From NCBI GenBank assembly GCA_010015805.1, contig ML978122.1:124001-188000 (forward strand): DNA of 64,000 nt, read 5' to 3'. Source of the DNA: Rhizodiscina lignyota. Lineage: Eukaryota. The notes beneath the pieces are model-generated. The model searched no databases and had not been told where the DNA came from. It was given only the letters and a program-made list of their open reading frames with translations. This document shows positions 19,201 to 59,489 of this stretch, piece by piece (position 1 is the stretch's first letter; every line of letters begins with the position of its first letter). The position numbers and the translations under genes are program-made.

Positions 19201-19884
19201 GACAACCAGAGCTTCCGGGAATACCGGGAATACACCTGAAAGAGATGGTATCTCTGAGAGTACTACTGCCACTTCACTATGGTGTTGTCTCCTTGCAGTT
19301 GCTGCGTGTATGGCGACTTCCAGCTCTTTGAGTGGAATCAGACGGCCCGAAGAGCTCCTGCTTTGATTGGCGGAGATGAGTGTGCAGCTGCTTGAAGAAG
19401 GGCCGAATTGGACGCACTTGCTCTTTACCAACTTCATCCACTTTGATGCCGAACTCAAGAGAAGTCATGAGCTCTGAGAAGAGACGTTCTGCAGTGACTA
19501 CCCTATGCTGGGGACGTGGAGTGTTATGCTCCATTCACAATATCTCTGGCCCTCTGGGAGGCACTTGTGAGTCTCTCAGAGTGACATTATGATCTCAGGT
19601 TGTAGCTTCTCGTTTCCTCTTCAATGCTCATACCTTCCTCAAGTAGGACTCTAGAAGCGACTTCCCTTTGCCTTATCTTGTATTCTGCATTCAATGTTGA
19701 CAATCTCATCTTGCGGCTTCCTCAACTTCCACTATGGCAGCACGTCCATCAAAACATTCTGCCACCTCTCTCTCCTCTCTCCTTTCCTTCGTCTCACACA
19801 ACAGTCTACCTCCGAACATCCCCACTGCTAAGCAGACCCTCTCGTTTCGAAAGCCAGCATCTTATCCCATCACATTCTTTCAAA

Positions 19885-42542: not shown

Positions 42543-43591
42543 TTATTCATTGGATGATTTTTGCGTGCTTGGGGAAGAGATGCCGAGAACGTCAGTGTTG
42601 TTCGAAGAGCGTCTTCCGAACCTGTGACAACTTGGGTGGAAGTTTATTAATCTTGTCGAAGATCGCTCTCCGGTCGCTGCCAGGACATGATCGAAGGTCA
42701 ATAAATCTAGCCGAGATCGCTCTTCAGTCGCCCTGACAAGACGCAAGAAATCTATTGATCTTCTTTCCGGACCATTCTGCATCCTCGCCTCCCTCTCTGC
42801 ATGTTTCCTAATCCACTCCAGTAGCTCTCTTCCATCAGTGCGCGATATACAAGGTAGTTCAACACATATATCCGATCATCATTCTTCTGCTGGCATAGCA
42901 TATGTGTGAAAGTCTTGCAATTTTCGTGAGCAATTCTTCTGCCCTTCAGTCGGTGACTCGGTTGCACGCGCAGAGTCGATGATATTCACGGCAAACACTC
43001 GTCTTTCAATTTGCTCATGTTCGATGAGCATGTGTTGTACGTTGCTTGGAGTCTCTTTAATGTGTGTGAATAGACTTAACAAATTTCGCTTTTCTCCTTA
43101 CACACTCTCAATCCTCGATTTCGACTGCGCTGGATAGCTTCTACTCCGCTGAGACGTTCTCACGTGTCGGAAGCTCTACTAGGTATGCTAGACACACCAT
43201 ATTCAAAAGCTCGATGGACTGTCCTTCCATGCTCGCTACACTATATCTGGAAATGGATGGCTCATTTAATTGCTTCTGGGTTAACGCCTTTCAGGTCGAT
43301 CTCGGACATTTTGGAATACCATCGTCTCGAAATATCGGGATGCCACGGCGAGCACGAAGCCATAAACAGGGAAACATCCATTCTCTTTGAGAATAAATAC
43401 CCAATTGGCAAGCGCCATATACACAAAACGTCAACTTCAGTTGCTTTGCTATTTGCGACTCGATGATATTGAGAAGCGATCTGTTGCAAGGCTACCACAC
43501 ACCAGACGCCCCAAATGATATAGAGGCCAGCACTCTCGTATTTATTAAAGGCTTTTGTGCCATTTGCTGACCGCGACAGCACTGTTTGCAA
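42543..43591 (-). pseudogene. Decayed gene, possibly BTB/POZ-like
   Basis: ORFs 42543-42782 and 42879-43082 share a frame and are separated by one TGA. The upstream fragment ASCSPW..SEIDLKGVNPEAIK* resembles a BTB core. Confidence 0.3.
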
Positions 43592-54912: not shown

Positions 54913-55180
54913 CTTGGTGATTGATAGTGGTGAAGTTTTGGGGGGAACTCGTTCAAGAGACCTTTTAAGGTCGGCCCGGTCCAGGAGTGGAATAGCTAAA
55001 TTCATGCCGGCGGTCGGCCCGATCTTCGACTCCCCGTGACAGCGCGTGTTCCTGGCGCGTTTTAGTGCAGCTTTCAAATCAGAAGCGGAAGAAGAGCAGC
55101 TCCTTACTTTGAAACTGGGTTCACGAATCACACTGTCGCAATCGTTGGGGCTTATCGACTTCGGCACATATTTCGCAGAG

Positions 55181-56485
55181 ATGCGGACGTCGCGAATAGC
55201 TCAGGATACATCACGTCTCGTCAGCGCCCTTGCAACGAATCGAACTCCACCAAGAAGGTCACTGCGCGGACGGAGTTTTGCGGAAGTTGACAATACCCTT
55301 CCAAACCAGAATGGCAGCTCTACAGAAGCCGGAAGCCGGAAGCGCAAAAGAGGCTCCAATGTACACTCAAGCGTTACGAAAATTGAAACATCCGAACGAG
55401 ACTCGAATCGAATTCCAGAATCTACCGCTGAAGTTGCGAAATCTAGCCGTGCAAGGAAGGCAAGGCGACAACCGGCGAAAAAGGTGGTAGACAATAAGGG
55501 AGATGTCAAAATCGAGCCGCCGCCAGGTTGGGAGGAAGTTTACAAGCTCACCCAAGAGATGCGATCAAAGATCGTTGCTCCCGTAGACGAAATGGGCTGC
55601 GAGGCGTTGGCGCTCAAGACAGCATCGCCGAGAGACCAGAGATTTCAGACGCTCATATCATTGATGCTGTCAAGCCAAACAAAAGACGCAGTGACCGCCG
55701 CCGCGGTGAAGAATTTGCAGGATAATCTTCCTGGCGTATGATCAATCCGTCCTGTGTAATGCATCGCGGCTTACTTTTATGTTAAGGGTCTCAACCTGGA
55801 ATCCATCCTCGCAGTCGAACCGAATACCTTGAATGAGTTCATTGGCAAAGTGGGCTTCCATAATCTGAAGACAAAATACATCAAGAATGCGGCGGTTATC
55901 TTGCGCGATTCATACGAGTCGGACATCCCTGACACCATAGCTGGGCTTACGTCTCTCCCTGGGGTCGGGCCTAAGATGGCGTATCTTTGCATGTCTGCGG
56001 CTTGGGGACGTGACGAGGGTATCGGCGTAGACGTGCATGTGCACAGAATCACAAATTTATGGGGCTGGCACAAGACAAACACTCCGGAAGAGACGAGAGC
56101 AGCGTTAGAGGCATGGTTACCAAAAGACAAGTGGCATCAGATTAACACTTTGCTCGTTGGATTAGGACAAACTGTATGCCAACCTGTTGGAAGGAAATGC
56201 GGAGAATGTGTACTAGCGGAACGAGGGCTATGCCCGGGCGCAGTTGTTGCGAAGGGCACAAAGTCGAAAAAGTTGGTCAACCGAGAAGTCAAGATCAAAT
56301 CTGACGATGGAGGGGACGTCATCAAAGAAGAGACTGAAGAGGTTGTGGAGCAGATGGAGATAAAAGCTGAAAATGTCGAAGATGTTGGTGGAGAGTCATT
56401 GGCCGAAGATATTGAGGATATCGGACTCGCTAGAAGAGGCTCACGACAAAGCCGAATAGCTAAGATCGATGAGTCCCGGTTATAG
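55181..56485 (+). CDS. NTH1: Endonuclease III homolog (HhH-GPD glycosylase/AP lyase, 4Fe-4S)
   Basis: [29 protein letters not shown] and the Cys cluster [12 protein letters not shown]. Intron 55736-55787. Confidence 0.95.
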
Positions 56486-57104
56486 TCCGCACTCGAGAAA
56501 TAGATTCTCTAACCTAACGGAAGGGGTATGAACCATTATCTTTGTGGTGAGGCTGAATCCGCCGAATTAGGCTTAGCGTACTATGTCCGATACACCGGCT
56601 GGCCAAAACGCTCGCAACATTTTGGCCTCGACTGTCTGACCGCCCAGAAATTATCGAACATGAACAAACATGGCTTCACAACGCTGTAGAACACGTCATT
56701 GATGTGTTCAGAGTTCTTCATGCGAGCGTCTTGTTGGTGGATACGATAGCCAGATCCCCGGAGTGCAGCACTCCAATCGCGAGAGTACACCAACTCCACA
56801 AATTCCAGTCTCTTGAGTTTCCTTGCTAAGACTACTATTGTCTAGTCAACATCTAGTCATCGCTTTCTCATTGTCCCTTTCATCCAGAATGACGATCGGT
56901 AATTCCACCGGGGTCTGATGCCGTGGAATGGCAGCCGTTCTGGGTCAACGTCTATATTTTCCTGTTTCGGGAATCAGTTTCTCTATCTCATTTTACTTTA
57001 GATTAAATCTACCATTGAACAAGTCATATATTCATCCGGATCTCCGGATAAAGGCCAACGTAGCGGTAGGCGTTGCGTGTTGGGCTCTAACCTTTGTGTG
57101 GGTT

Positions 57105-57134
57105 GGAGAACAATACTAAGGAGAACAATATTAA
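57105..57134 (+). promoter_or_regulatory. 15-bp direct repeat, each copy with an HMG-box-type AACAAT
   Basis: GGAGAACAATACTAA / GGAGAACAATATTAA, ~250-280 nt upstream of ATG 57387. Confidence 0.55.
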
Positions 57135-57282
57135 GCACTACCATTCCTCCGGCTGAGCCGCATCGCTGAGGCGCACGAGACGCGCGGTTCTTTCACAGGA
57201 CACTGTTTAGCATTGTCTGGTACGTTTATACCGTGAGACGCTTACGATTGTGGATATATTCCTTCTCGCGGGTCTCGACGCC

Positions 57283-57289
57283 TATATAA
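57283..57289 (+). promoter_or_regulatory. TATA box of the CAAX-peptide gene
   Basis: TATATAA ~100 nt upstream of AAAAATG at 57387, followed by a C/A-rich leader. Confidence 0.65.
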
Positions 57290-57386
57290 CGACGCCGAAC
57301 TTCGAACATCTTCCATCTCCATCGCAAACTATCAAACTCTTCCTATCGCTTCACAGTTCAAGAACTATCAACCATCCAAATCAAAA

Positions 57387-57548
57387 ATGCAGTTCTCCAC
57401 TGTCACTCTCGTCAACCAGGCTGGTGTTCAGCAAGGTACAGCATTCGCAGGCCCCATTTGCCCAATGTCTTATGCTAAAAAAGATACAGAAATCGTCAAC
57501 GAGGCCGGTGGCAAGCCAGGTCACGGCGACCAGTGCATTGTCATGTAA
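57387..57548 (+). CDS. Candidate a-factor-class lipopeptide pheromone precursor (C-terminal CAAX, CIVM)
   Basis: Spliced form (intron 57436-57489) is MQFSTVTLVNQAGVQQEIVNEAGGKPGHGDQCIVM; the unspliced form is 53 aa with the same C-terminus. Strong start context, TATA box, no signal peptide. Confidence 0.75.
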   Translation: MQFSTVTLVNQAGVQQGTAFAGPICPMSYAKKDTEIVNEAGGKPGHGDQCIVM

Positions 57549-58210
57549 ATCGACTCCTGACTCTTGCGAACGGCAACGTTTAGAGGGATCGCGACGAAGA
57601 TGACGCCTGGCTACCTTTGGAAACTCTTCAGCTCACTACTCCCGCCAACTCATCCTTCCGAATCAAGCCCATTCGCCCGATAGCTCGAGGGGCGCAAGGC
57701 ATTAGCAGGTATTGGCAAATCCCTTGCCGGCCATGCTTAGGATGCTCCGACCGTCGCCAATGAGCTTACTCCGTACAACACTGAGGGAACGTTGAGAGGG
57801 GGAAGTTGTGGGTTACCTTGGACAATATAGCGGTGGCTGATACTTCTATACACTGCTCTTTACTCTTTGATCGTCCTTTTTGCTTTTTGCATTGCTTTTT
57901 TGGAATGGACTGCGCGGCCTGCCAATGTACTCTTCCTCAGGGCTCTTAATGGAGGAGCACCGTGCTTTTTAATAACTTCATGTTGCTGGTCAGAGATAAA
58001 CAAATGCATAACTTCACTTCTATATAGGCTGGACAAATCTTCTTTGCAGATTCCGAGAGTGAAATTGACTTGACCCATAAACTGACACTGGTTGTCTCGC
58101 CGAAAACGGTTAGTCGTTGATGTTGACCCTTTGTCCGAAAAGGGTAACACGCGACGCCGTTGTAGCTGCATTTCTCGAACTGCATTGCAGCTCCCCTACC
58201 CTCGCTCAGC

Positions 58211-58984
58211 ATGTCTTTTCCAGCTGTCGATGATCGTGCTCCAAGTACGCAGCTAGGCGGCGGAAGTCAGTAGCGCTTCGTCCACGTGCAATTGCATATT
58301 CCCTGCTAACGTCCGCGCGCAGCCTTCAATCACTCGCAGTCCCGCGAAGCTGAGGAAGAGTACGATCGCCTTCGGAATCTAGCTAGACAAGAGCTCTCCA
58401 AACGATCGCAATGCCTCGACCGAGCGCACCAAGCATACGAGAATGGTGATGGCGCGTCGGCACACGAGCTCTCCGAGGAAGGAAAGAGACATGGTGCGAA
58501 GGCGGACGAGTACAACAAACAAGCATCAGACTACATATTCCGCGAGAACAACGCACATGTCGGTGCAGACACTATCGATCTGCACGGCCAGTTCGTCGAA
58601 GAGGCCGAGGACATTCTTGAGCAGCGGATAAGATACGCGCAGTCACAGGGGCAATCGCACCTCCATGTCATTGTCGGCAAGGGAAACCATTCCTACAATC
58701 ACGTCCAGAAGATCAAGCCGCGAGTGGAGCAGGTATGCCAGGAGCTTGGGCTACAGTATCGCACGGAACACAACGAGGGCAGGATATACATAAATCTGAC
58801 TGGTGGTCCAGCGGAGCCAGAGCAGAGACCGCCCACAGGACAACAATATCATGGTGGCCAGCAGCACGGAGGACAGCAACATCAGCGGCCACCACAGCAA
58901 CAGTTCGATCAAGATGAGCAGGCAGAGCAGGAACCCGAGAGGTCTCTGCTCAAATGCTTGAAGGGTTGCTGTGTGGTAATGTGA
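58211..58984 (+). CDS. Smr-domain (DUF1771 + Smr) protein with C-terminal CCVVM
   Basis: Intron 58266-58322. IDLHGQFVEEA and HVIVGKGNHS Smr motifs; Gln-rich tail ending GCCVVM*. Confidence 0.92.
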
Positions 58985-59489
58985 TAGGAGTTACTCCGTA
59001 CTCAGACCTGCAAAGGGGAACATGGGACAACACGACGTGATGAGATGAGATGAGCGATTTTGGATATGTTATGAGCATTCTGCATGCCTCGAAGCTACAG
59101 TGGACATGTGGCTTGACCCAAGCCGAACAAGAGTCGGAAGCTGCTGACAAGGACGGTATCATTCACCAATGTTAATTTGTCCGGACTTCGGAGTTCGTCT
59201 GCCTAATCTGACCATTGTGTAATATCCCCTCTTTGTTCAGAGCATTGATCGTCTTATAGGGGCGCATAACAATGGCACCAGGTGTCAACAATCTCGTTTT
59301 ATAATTCAATTACGTCGCAGAGCCAGACGTAGAAATTGTGTTGTGTTGCACACATATTGCAGTGCCACAAGTCGTCCGTTTCCAATCATCCGTTACTTTA
59401 GTTGCTTCTGTTCCTCTGAAGCAGAACCACCCGAGCAGGTGCGACCAAAGTTACAGCACAACTTCCAATACAAAACACCACGTCCAACA

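What the first reader, a model, noticed from the sequence alone, without database searches (positions are those of the whole stretch)
57387..57548. Candidate a-factor-class lipopeptide mating pheromone gene missed by the ORF track
Seen: a tiny ORF with a TATA box (57283) and AAAAATG start, no signal peptide, ending GHGDQ-CIVM-stop, a canonical farnesylation CAAX box. An Asn/Glu-Ala site (VN|EAGGKPGHGDQC) precedes a ~12-aa Gly-rich core. Established: a-class precursors are short CAAX peptides processed via Ram1/Ste24/Rce1/Ste14/Axl1 and exported by Ste6. Examples are S. cerevisiae MFA1 (cleaved after Asn, ends CVIA), Neurospora mfa-1 (ends CVVM) and Cryptococcus MFalpha (..NQEAHPGGMTLCVIA). They are routinely missed by annotation and are poorly known outside yeasts and Sordariomycetes. 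Inference: this is the a-class pheromone of an apparently Dothideomycete-like fungus.
Basis: partly seen in the sequence, partly recalled or inferred. Interest (0 to 1): 0.88.

Follow-up and report, generated by a model that had tools for sequence, protein, structure and literature searches.

The report
Unannotated CAAX pheromone-like peptide gene
A tiny, unannotated but transcribed and spliced gene in the wood fungus Rhizodiscina lignyota encodes a 35-residue peptide ending in a lipid-attachment signal, which makes it a credible but untested candidate for the "a-factor"-type mating pheromone that has not been described in its fungal class.

Summary
The ORF is there as described: 57387-57548 (+), TATA at 57283, first AUG in AAAAATG, ends CIVM-stop. 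A freshwater metatranscriptome contig skips exactly this stretch, so the product has 35 residues, not 53.

A CAAX ending alone is chance level here (3 of 820 small ORFs). The gene is nevertheless real:
- RNA contigs from three studies tile 57351-58017.
- Codon usage beats all 160 background small ORFs.
- A relative about 96% identical keeps the ORF.
- The ORF holds a significant internal repeat, [LI]VN[QE]AG twice.

The neighbouring Smr gene is 99% identical to a Rhizodiscina lignyota protein, so the host is a Dothideomycete.

No homologue turned up in protein libraries or in 68 related metagenome loci. The one locus that keeps the Nth1-Smr linkage lacks such a gene.

Nothing tests pheromone function. 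I rate an a-factor-class lipopeptide pheromone precursor at about 0.5, another role for a small prenylated peptide at about 0.3, and an incidental ORF at about 0.12. A 2023 paper states that no a-factor gene was known in filamentous ascomycetes outside the Sordariomycetes before its own Leotiomycete candidate. This makes it a useful, testable lead.

The parts
57105..57135 (+). Tandem repeat GGAGAACAATAYTAAG x2 (copies share one G), about 150-180 nt upstream of the TATA box. Each copy holds the Sox/HMG-type core AACAAT. Candidate transcription-factor site; function unknown.
   Evidence: 2 matches in the window, both here; 0 of 100 dinucleotide shuffles give 2. AACAAT occurs 2 times in the 901-nt upstream region against 0.52 expected from the window's density.
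57283..57289 (+). TATA box (TATATAA), 98 nt upstream of the ATG.
   Evidence: Read directly.
57351..57386 (+). 5' UTR, the minimum extent seen in RNA. There is no upstream ATG between the TATA box and 57387.
   Evidence: the X4 contig starts at 57351. Sequence read.
57387..57435 (+). Exon 1 coding part: 16 codons plus the first base of the split Glu codon. Holds repeat unit 1 (LVNQAG).
57436..57489 (+). 54-nt intron (GT..AG), open in frame by chance, removed in RNA.
   Evidence: table 5: the X4 contig skips 54 nt, ends GT..AG (cut +2), with 84 letters on the shorter side.
57490..57548 (+). Exon 2 coding part with the stop codon. Holds repeat unit 2 (IVNEAG), Asn20 (57498-57500), the predicted 12-residue core (57501-57536), Cys32 (57534-57536), the -IVM tail and TAA.
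57409..57521 (+). Span holding the internal direct repeat: 57409-57437 and 57493-57521, 29 nt, 79% identical. It encodes VN[QE]AG... twice, which shows a two-unit build of the precursor.
   Evidence: family D1; 2 of 2000 shuffles of the ORF reach the observed self-match score.
57549..58017 (+). Long 3' UTR of about 470 nt. The probable poly(A) site lies near 58013-58017, after ATAAAC at 57996. The next gene's TATA-like ctatatagg follows at 58020.
   Evidence: contigs of X2 (57509-58013) and X3 (57808-58017), from two studies, stop within 4 nt of each other with no loose ends. This is a weak hint. Sequence.

Best explanation
The feature is an unannotated, one-intron gene of Rhizodiscina lignyota (Dothideomycetes, Aulographales). 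It is transcribed into an mRNA of about 0.65 kb, and its first AUG opens a 35-codon reading frame ending in CIVM.

Most likely it is the precursor of an a-factor-class lipopeptide pheromone. All steps below are inferred from the S. cerevisiae a-factor pathway; none was shown here.
1. Cys32 is farnesylated by the Ram1/Ram2 farnesyltransferase (X = Met).
2. The -IVM tail is removed by an Rce1- or Ste24-type protease.
3. The new C-terminal Cys is methyl-esterified by a Ste14-type enzyme.
4. The N-terminal extension is removed, perhaps in two steps at the two repeated VN|xAG sites. The second cut, after Asn20, would leave a 12-residue hydrophilic Gly-rich core.
5. The lipopeptide leaves the cell through the Ste6-type ABC transporter and is sensed by a Ste3-type receptor.

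Shown here: the gene, its splicing, its expression in nature, its coding character and its CaaX end. Inferred: everything from prenylation onward.
For: A real spliced transcript:
- An RNA contig of run X4 skips exactly 57436-57489 (GT..AG).
- RNA contigs from 3 of 3 RNA runs laid tile only 57351-58017 of the 2901 nt laid.

It looks coding:
- It is the first AUG after the TATA box, with A at -3.
- Codon log-likelihood is 0.320 bits per codon in frame, against -0.012 and -0.321 in the other two frames.
- That score is higher than all 160 background small ORFs and at or above 81% of the 123 35-codon chunks of Pfam-supported genes.
- The X4 relative (about 96% identical) has 1 change in 108 coding nt (Gln2 to Leu). 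It has 2 indels in 36 nt of 5' UTR and 4 changes in 120 nt of 3' UTR. Exon 2 is identical.

Class features are met:
- 35 aa, no signal peptide, CaaX with X = Met, and an Asn 12 residues before the Cys. This lies within the 5-20 range used by Srikant et al. (bioRxiv 10.1101/2021.09.28.462209, section 5).
- An intron has precedent: the same text says S. pombe pheromone genes contain introns.
- A hydrophilic Gly-containing core has precedent: the Cryptococcus alpha pheromone is a farnesylated, methylated 11-mer starting Gln-Glu-Ala (passage).

Other points:
- Dothideomycetes carry one Ste6-like gene per genome in all species analysed in PMC6071951 (passage).
- The ESM Atlas nearest cluster is a 34-aa family with Pfam 'Pheromone' PF08015 on 22% of 134 members. 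The score is 0.80, so this is a lead only.
- From my own knowledge, no other class of fungal CaaX peptides of 40 aa or fewer is known.
Against: - CaaX small ORFs are common by chance: 3 of 820 here, and 500-2000 per yeast genome according to Srikant et al..
- No homologue was found. The 5.8-billion-protein library gave nothing at near or longer lengths. HMMER over 1.84 billion representatives gave only a spurious repeat-protein hit across the intron-coded part. Pfam gave nothing. tblastn against 68 related loci gave a best E of 1.5.
- The single locus that keeps Nth1-Smr linkage (L014) has no such ORF.
- The residue after Asn20 is Glu. Srikant et al. describe N-X with X aromatic or uncharged.
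- There is no Gly-Tyr before the Cys and no similarity by eye to the Sordariomycete precursors listed in the supplement of PMC10569646.
- Podospora MFM and MFP are intronless (PMC3125171).
- The 901-nt upstream region has no Ste12-type TGAAACA. It has only 1 match to the MAT1-1-1 motif YYATTGAB, which is chance level: 23 in the window against 27.9 expected.
- There is no second copy in the window.
- Mating-type dependence, prenylation, export and receptor activity are all untested.
Confidence: 0.5

Rival explanations
1. It is a translated small prenylated peptide with a role other than mate recognition. Examples are a membrane-anchored micro-protein or a self or developmental signal. It may be a distant, shortened relative of the Leotiomycete BCIN_13g03330 family, whose own mating role its discoverers question.
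For: - The evidence for a real coding gene is the same as above.
- By eye, the 111-species Leotiomycete set (supplement S10 of PMC10569646, read in full) shares with this peptide a Ser/Thr-containing start, an LVNxxG block, a later IV[K/N].E.GG..K block and the CaaX end. Both therefore have a two-unit [LI]V[NK]xxG build.
- Wilson et al. found no mating-type-dependent expression of that family in three species and doubt a classical pheromone role (passages).
- The transcript occurs in soil and freshwater metatranscriptomes, so it is not tied to laboratory mating conditions.
Against: - The family's most conserved part, the Cys-rich CDG.ECCCIPIPC block, is absent here. The length (35 aa) is outside the family's 45-64 aa.
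- The Asn at the fifth place of the family's LVNxN block is Ala here.
- The resemblance was judged by eye only. Sequences from the paper were not entered into alignment tools, so no statistic exists.
- No non-pheromone function is known for any fungal CaaX peptide this short (my own knowledge).
- Sordariomycete pheromone transcripts are also abundant in vegetative or starved mycelium (PMC3125171), so environmental expression does not discriminate.
Confidence: 0.3
2. The transcript is functional or incidental as RNA (a non-coding or regulatory RNA upstream of the Smr gene), and the CaaX ORF is not translated into a stable product.
For: - The coding part is only 108 of about 630 nt, and the 3' UTR is about 470 nt.
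- CaaX endings occur by chance.
- No protein homologue exists in any library searched.
Against: - The ORF starts at the first AUG, in good context.
- In-frame codon usage exceeds all 160 background small ORFs and is frame-specific.
- The relative's contig changes the UTRs more than the ORF.
- The internal repeat keeps the reading frame and the encoded motif.
- There is no Rfam family in 56400-58400 at E up to 1.
Confidence: 0.12
3. The product is the unspliced 53-residue peptide (intron retention).
For: The intron is a multiple of 3 and has no in-frame stop, so a retained-intron mRNA would also end in CIVM.
Against: - The only RNA contig that crosses the site is spliced (1 of 1).
- An 18-codon stretch stays open by chance about 4 times in 10. 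This is my arithmetic, (61/64)^18.
- The intron read in frame scores lower for codon usage (0.108 against 0.320).
- The only library hit to the 53-aa frame lies on the intron-coded part of a repeat protein and is spurious.
Confidence: 0.05

Closest known systems
S. cerevisiae a-factor precursors (MFA1/MFA2) and their maturation pathway (Ram1/Ram2, Ste24, Rce1, Ste14, Axl1/Ste23, Ste6, Ste3)
   Same: - A short precursor of similar size, no signal peptide, a C-terminal CaaX.
- An Asn 12 residues before the Cys, which predicts a 12-residue mature lipopeptide. The pathway is as described in Srikant et al., section 5.
- The precursor and mature lengths of the yeast peptide are recalled, not taken from a call.
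   Different: - No sequence similarity.
- The residue after the Asn is Glu rather than aromatic or uncharged.
- The core is strongly hydrophilic (GRAVY -1.38).
- The gene has an intron and an internal two-unit repeat.
Sordariomycete lipopeptide pheromone precursors (N. crassa mfa-1, S. macrospora ppg2, P. anserina MFP)
   Same: - A tiny CaaX precursor ending in [VI]VM, encoded by a small, well-expressed transcript.
- mfa-1 and MFP are among the most abundant transcripts (PMC3125171, passage).
- A long 3' UTR in mfa-1 is recalled from Kim et al. 2002, which is not held.
   Different: - Those are 21-24 aa, start MPST and have Gly-Tyr or Ser-Tyr just before the Cys (supplement passages).
- MFM and MFP are intronless.
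- No detectable similarity here.
Leotiomycete putative a-factor family (B. cinerea BCIN_13g03330 and 110 others; Wilson et al. 2023, PMC10569646)
   Same: - An unannotated small CaaX gene in a non-Sordariomycete filamentous ascomycete.
- By eye, a shared LVNxxG block, an IV[K/N].E.GG..K block and a C[TVI]VM end.
   Different: - It lacks the invariant Cys-rich CDG.ECCCIPIPC block.
- 35 aa against 45-64 aa.
- The spacing between the two blocks differs.
- The resemblance is not statistically tested.
S. pombe M-factor genes (mfm1-3)
   Same: A CaaX lipopeptide pheromone gene interrupted by an intron. The statement that S. pombe pheromone genes contain introns is in Srikant et al., section 5.
   Different: - No sequence relation.
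- The multi-copy status of mfm is recalled. Only one copy is seen in this window.
Basidiomycete lipopeptide pheromones (Pfam PF08015; Cryptococcus MFalpha)
   Same: - A hydrophilic, Gly-containing farnesylated and methylated core that begins near Glu-Ala after an Asn (Cryptococcus 11-mer, passage).
- The nearest ESM-Atlas cluster carries PF08015 on 22% of its members (score 0.80).
   Different: - No Pfam hit to PF08015.
- A different phylum.
- Not linked to a receptor gene in this window.

Membership tests
a-factor-class CaaX lipopeptide pheromone precursors (functional class) | Short precursor (under 100 aa) without a signal peptide | tested here: met
   35 aa after splicing. No hydrophobic N-terminal core.
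a-factor-class CaaX lipopeptide pheromone precursors (functional class) | C-terminal CaaX-stop suited to farnesylation | tested here: met
   Cys-Ile-Val-Met-TAA at 57534-57548. The rule that X = Met favours farnesyltransferase is established knowledge.
a-factor-class CaaX lipopeptide pheromone precursors (functional class) | Asn-type N-terminal processing site 5-20 residues before the Cys, followed by an aromatic or uncharged residue (Srikant et al.) | tested here: inconclusive
   Asn20 lies 12 residues before Cys32, so the position is met. The next residue is Glu, which is charged, so the residue rule is not met. The rule is, the sequence.
a-factor-class CaaX lipopeptide pheromone precursors (functional class) | Transcribed | tested here: met
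   A spliced RNA contig, plus two further RNA contigs from other studies.
a-factor-class CaaX lipopeptide pheromone precursors (functional class) | Mature sequence conserved in close relatives | tested here: inconclusive
   One relative (X4 contig, about 96% identical) has an identical exon 2. None of 68 more distant loci has a counterpart. No close relative's genome could be searched.
a-factor-class CaaX lipopeptide pheromone precursors (functional class) | Several gene copies encoding the same pheromone (frequent, not universal) | not testable with these tools
   No second copy in the 64-kb window. The whole genome is not held.
a-factor-class CaaX lipopeptide pheromone precursors (functional class) | Mating-type- or MAT-dependent expression | not testable with these tools
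   Only environmental RNA contigs are available. Promoter motif scans are not informative.
a-factor-class CaaX lipopeptide pheromone precursors (functional class) | Farnesylation, methylation, Ste6-type export and Ste3-type receptor activation | not testable with these tools
   These need biochemistry and genetics. The literature reports only that Ste6-like genes are present in Dothideomycetes.
Sordariomycete Ppg2/mfa-1 sequence family | MPST-type start and Gly-Tyr (or Ser-Tyr) immediately before the CaaX Cys | tested here: not met
   Compared by eye with the sequences printed from the supplement of PMC10569646. This peptide starts MQFS and has Asp-Gln before the Cys.
Leotiomycete BCIN_13g03330 family | Cys-rich block CDG.ECCCIP(IP)C directly before the CaaX; length 45-64 aa | tested here: not met
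   The block is absent from the ORF and from all six frames of the window and the 68 loci. The length is 35 aa.
Leotiomycete BCIN_13g03330 family | N-terminal LVNxNG and SIVK[PG]E blocks | tested here: inconclusive
   LVNQAG and EIVNEAG are present and similar by eye. The family's conserved Asn at the fifth place of the first block is Ala here. No alignment statistic was computed.
Pfam PF08015 (fungal mating-type pheromone, basidiomycete) | Match to the Pfam model | tested here: not met
   No Pfam family at E up to 0.01. There is only an ESM-Atlas lead at 0.80.

The most novel reading that the evidence does not exclude
This would be the first a-factor-class pheromone gene of the Dothideomycetes. 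Its two-unit [LI]V[NK]xxG ... CaaX build would be homologous to the Leotiomycete BCIN_13g03330 family. One ancient CaaX-peptide family would then span the non-Sordariomycete Pezizomycotina. That would give a sequence handle (intron-aware motif or profile searches) for finding the a-factor gene in Dothideomycetes, and perhaps also in Eurotiomycetes and lichen-forming classes.
Probability: 0.18. Interest if true: 0.8.

Novelty: new member of a known kind. Interest (0 to 1): 0.6.

Why it matters
Filamentous ascomycetes keep Ste3-type receptors and Ste6-type exporters. Yet Wilson et al. [quoted passage not shown] Their own Leotiomycete candidate is uncertain.

My literature searches found no described Dothideomycete lipopeptide pheromone. 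Those searches cover open-access PMC papers and bioRxiv only.

Dothideomycetes are the largest fungal class and include many crop pathogens whose sexual cycles are poorly understood. A transcript-supported CaaX peptide gene gives a concrete object for synthesis, receptor assays and knock-outs. It also shows that stop-anchored CaaX screens miss genes with introns.

The lead is limited to one little-studied species until relatives are searched.

Tried and rejected
- **Whole genome.** Not held. Copy number, the MAT type of the strain, and Ste3, Ste6 and Ram1 could not be examined.
- **Protein libraries.** The word-indexed search found nothing at near lengths or at longer lengths. HMMER over 1.84 billion representatives gave one hit, P0121, a 1145-aa repeat protein. 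It aligns 7 times to residues 6-36 of the unspliced frame, mostly the intron-coded part, and I reject it as spurious.
- **ESM Atlas.** The exon-2 part (residues 34-53) gave no usable hit.
- **Synteny.** A metagenome scan with the Smr protein gave 68 loci at 47-81% identity.
  - tblastn with the spliced and unspliced peptide gave a best E of 1.5.
  - A listing of every CaaX-like frame end showed no counterpart.
  - blastn with the intergenic DNA gave only 21-26-nt chance matches.
  - Nth1 lies upstream in 1 of 68 loci (L014), where a GTP-cyclohydrolase-II-like frame and a 528-aa frame lie in between.
- **Large records behind the loci.** Searching them was not possible because the records are not held.
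- **Degenerate DNA pattern for the last nine residues plus stop.** 0 matches in genome contigs and 0 in viral contigs. Neither collection is fungal.
- **Earlier findings of this scan.** Nothing relevant.
- **RNA families.** No Rfam family. The bacterial-type promoter and terminator scan is irrelevant to a fungus.
- **Promoter motifs.** Ste12 PRE, Mcm1 and Ste11 TR-box gave 0 hits, and CAAAG was at expectation. The MAT1-1-1 motif was at chance level.
- **Coverage pattern.** In the three RNA runs, Nth1's 3' end and the Smr gene have no cover while the peptide transcript has. The runs were found with this very stretch and contigs are filtered, so I do not use this as evidence of high expression.
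- **Leotiomycete family comparison.** A formal alignment or profile test was left out, because sequences from a paper's supplement were not entered into analysis tools. The comparison is by eye only.
- **Papers and files not seen.** Kim et al. 2002 on mfa-1 is not held. The pptx figures of PMC10569646 and the sequences of its Table 1 could not be read.

Full report
**What is in the sequence.**

The + strand ORF 57387-57548 exists as described. Its conceptual translation is MQFSTVTLVNQAGVQQGTAFAGPICPMSYAKKDTEIVNEAGGKPGHGDQCIVM. TATATAA lies at 57283-57289. There is no ATG between it and 57387, and the start context is caaaaATGc.

Reading the DNA, I saw a typical small fungal intron inside the frame: GT at 57436, a branch-like tgctaa, and AG at 57488-57489. 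It is 54 nt long, so removing it keeps the frame.

**RNA evidence.**

One search for public runs and one laying of four runs on 56400-59300 gave the following.
- X1 (kind not on record) holds the whole stretch at 100% in a single record. It may be the window's own source and is not independent.
- Three RNA (metatranscriptome) runs from three studies each gave one contig.
- X4 (freshwater) covers 57351-57433 joined to 57488-57668. It skips 54 nt with GT..AG ends (cut +2) and has 84 letters on the shorter side. This is the predicted intron.
- X2 (soil) covers 57509-58013 without a difference.
- X3 (soil) covers 57808-58017 with two C>T changes.
- X2 and X3 stop within 4 nt of each other, just after ATAAAC (57996) and just before a TATA-like ctatatagg at 58020 that precedes the next gene.

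The gene model is therefore:
- TATA box at 57283
- 5' UTR reaching at least to 57351
- ATG at 57387
- intron 57436-57489
- stop at 57546-57548
- a 3' UTR of about 470 nt

The product has 35 residues. Residues 17-34 of the 53-aa frame are intronic, and the split codon reads Glu.

**Is it more than chance?**

A CaaX ending is not. In the window, 3 of 820 ATG-ORFs of 15 aa or more end in C[VILA][VILA][MASQC], and 4 of 4421 stops are preceded by it. Srikant et al. report 500-2000 such ORFs per yeast genome (section 5). Three other results lift this ORF above that background.
1. The spliced transcript described above.
2. Codon usage. I trained a codon table on 14 Pfam-supported frames of the window.
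   - The spliced CDS scores 0.320 bits per codon in frame, against -0.012 and -0.321 in the other frames.
   - It scores above all 160 background small ORFs (mean 0.018, sd 0.122).
   - It scores at or above 81% of the 123 35-codon chunks of real genes.
3. The X4 relative.
   - It has one change in the 108 coding nt (57391 A>T, Gln2 to Leu).
   - It has two indels in 36 nt of 5' UTR and four substitutions in 120 nt of 3' UTR.
   - Exon 2 is unchanged.
   - This is one low-depth contig, so the evidence is weak.

**Internal anatomy.**

The ORF holds a 29-nt direct repeat, 57409-57437 and 57493-57521, 79% identical. Only 2 of 2000 shuffles of the ORF reach that score. It encodes LVNQAG... and IVNEAG..., so the precursor is built from two units followed by the CaaX tail. 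The first copy runs across the exon-intron boundary. The two Asn residues (10 and 20) are thus paralogous. I suggest, as inference only, that they mark two successive N-terminal cuts.

The peptide from Glu21 to Cys32 is hydrophilic (GRAVY -1.38, net charge about -1).

**Surroundings and organism.**
- Upstream lies an endonuclease III gene (HhH-GPD and HHH domains, 55040-56485).
- Downstream lies a DUF1771-Smr gene.
- The Smr frame is 99% identical to an NCBI protein named for Rhizodiscina lignyota (P0001). This protein starts at window 58211.
- The lineage is Dothideomycetes, Aulographales.
- The rest of the window is ordinary housekeeping: PIG-S, Tom37-like, rhomboid, an E2 enzyme, zinc fingers, DNA polymerase delta, a thioesterase, GST, Memo, cyanate lyase, an O-methyltransferase, FAM32A and DUF1996/WSC. 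There is no MAT gene and no receptor gene.

**Search for relatives.**
- The 5.8-billion-protein library has no protein of 29-93 aa or of 94-2000 aa related to the ORF. It does hold the neighbour's annotated product, so the gene is unannotated.
- HMMER over 1.84 billion representatives returned only a repeat protein. It matches the intron-coded part and is spurious.
- Pfam gave no hit and Rfam gave no hit.
- The ESM Atlas nearest cluster is a 34-aa family in which 22% of 134 members carry Pfam PF08015 'Pheromone'. The score is 0.80, which shuffled proteins reach a third of the time, so this is a lead only.
- A metagenome scan with the Smr protein fetched 68 fungal loci at 47-81% identity. None holds a relative of the peptide, and the intergenic DNA does not align.
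- Nth1 lies upstream of Smr in only 1 of the 68 loci (L014). There, two other genes separate them and no CaaX small ORF resembles this one.
- In 12 of the loci a G-alpha-type gene end lies upstream instead.

It also shows that this neighbourhood is not conserved at the distances available. R. lignyota has no close sequenced relative in these collections: the next-best Smr is 83% identical.

**Promoter.**
- A tandem repeat GGAGAACAATAYTAAG x2 at 57105-57135 is unique in the window; 0 of 100 shuffles give two matches.
- It holds the Sox/HMG core AACAAT twice.
- It does not fit the MAT1-1-1 consensus (T/C)(T/C)ATTGA(G/T/C) defined in PMC8022922 (passages).
- That MAT1-1-1 motif occurs once in the 901-nt upstream region, which is chance level.
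- There is no Ste12-type TGAAACA.
- The repeat remains an unexplained candidate regulatory site.

**Comparison with what is known.**

Wilson et al. 2023 (PMC10569646) state that no a-factor gene had been found in filamentous ascomycetes outside the Sordariomycetes. They propose a Leotiomycete candidate of 45-64 aa. I read the abstract, sections 9, 21 and 22, further passages, and supplement S10 in full.

By eye, that family and this peptide share the following:
- a Ser/Thr-containing start
- an LVNxxG block
- an IV[K/N].E.GG..K block
- a C.VM end

This peptide lacks the family's invariant Cys-rich block and is shorter. I did not enter the paper's sequences into alignment tools, so the resemblance carries no statistic.

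Other comparisons:
- The Sordariomycete precursors printed from the same supplement are not similar.
- An intron has precedent in S. pombe.
- A hydrophilic Gly-containing farnesylated core has precedent in Cryptococcus.
- Pheromone transcripts are among the most abundant in Podospora and Neurospora.
- Every Dothideomycete analysed in PMC6071951 has one Ste6-like gene.
- Five literature searches found no described Dothideomycete lipopeptide pheromone. The library holds open-access PMC papers and bioRxiv only.

**Verdict.**

The gene is real, expressed in nature, coding-like and CaaX-ended.

The a-factor-class reading rests on class features: size, no signal peptide, a farnesyl-type CaaX, an Asn at the right distance, and the lack of any other known class of such short fungal CaaX peptides. 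It does not rest on homology, conservation across species or any functional test.

I put it at about 0.5. A non-mating role for a prenylated peptide, possibly related to the Leotiomycete family, is at about 0.3. An incidental ORF on a non-coding RNA is at about 0.12. The unspliced 53-aa product is at about 0.05.

Noticed in passing
window 58211-58984 (+); loci L001-L068: The downstream DUF1771-Smr protein itself ends in a CaaX box preceded by a second Cys (CCVVM). This end is widely kept. In 48 of the 60 related loci whose frame reaches a stop, the protein ends CxxM, mostly CC[VIT][VI]M. P0001 and P0002 also end CCVVM. This suggests a conserved prenylated, and perhaps also palmitoylated, Smr-domain protein.
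   Followed up: partly
window 57105-57135 (+): A unique tandem repeat GGAGAACAATAYTAAG x2 lies in the promoter of the peptide gene, with the Sox/HMG core AACAAT in each copy. 0 of 100 shuffles give two matches. The binding factor is unknown, and the repeat does not fit the published MAT1-1-1 motif.
   Followed up: partly
L001, L006, L007, L008, L018, L025, L028, L029, L051, L053, L058, L060 (minus strand, 3.5-5.7 kb upstream of the Smr match): In 12 related fungal loci a gene end reading ...DIIIQENLR.CGL[ILM], preceded by FLNKID..., lies upstream of Smr. By recall this looks like the C-terminus of a group-I G-alpha subunit. It is absent from this window. The neighbourhood of Smr therefore differs between R. 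lignyota and these fungi.
   Followed up: partly
window 19279-19395 (+) and 43463-43570 (+): Two other small ATG-ORFs end in CaaX-like tetrapeptides (CAAA, CAIC). No supporting evidence was sought. They illustrate the chance background.
   Followed up: no
window 57860-58171 (-): A 103-aa minus-strand ORF overlaps the 3' UTR and the intergenic region. The RNA contigs end inside it (58013/58017) rather than covering it. It is probably not a gene.
   Followed up: partly
L012, L014, L016 (+ strand, about 1.1 kb upstream of the Smr match): A 68-aa frame ending ...CSLQ recurs in three closely related loci. It overlaps the minus-strand 528-aa frame in L014, so it is most likely a shadow frame.
   Followed up: no
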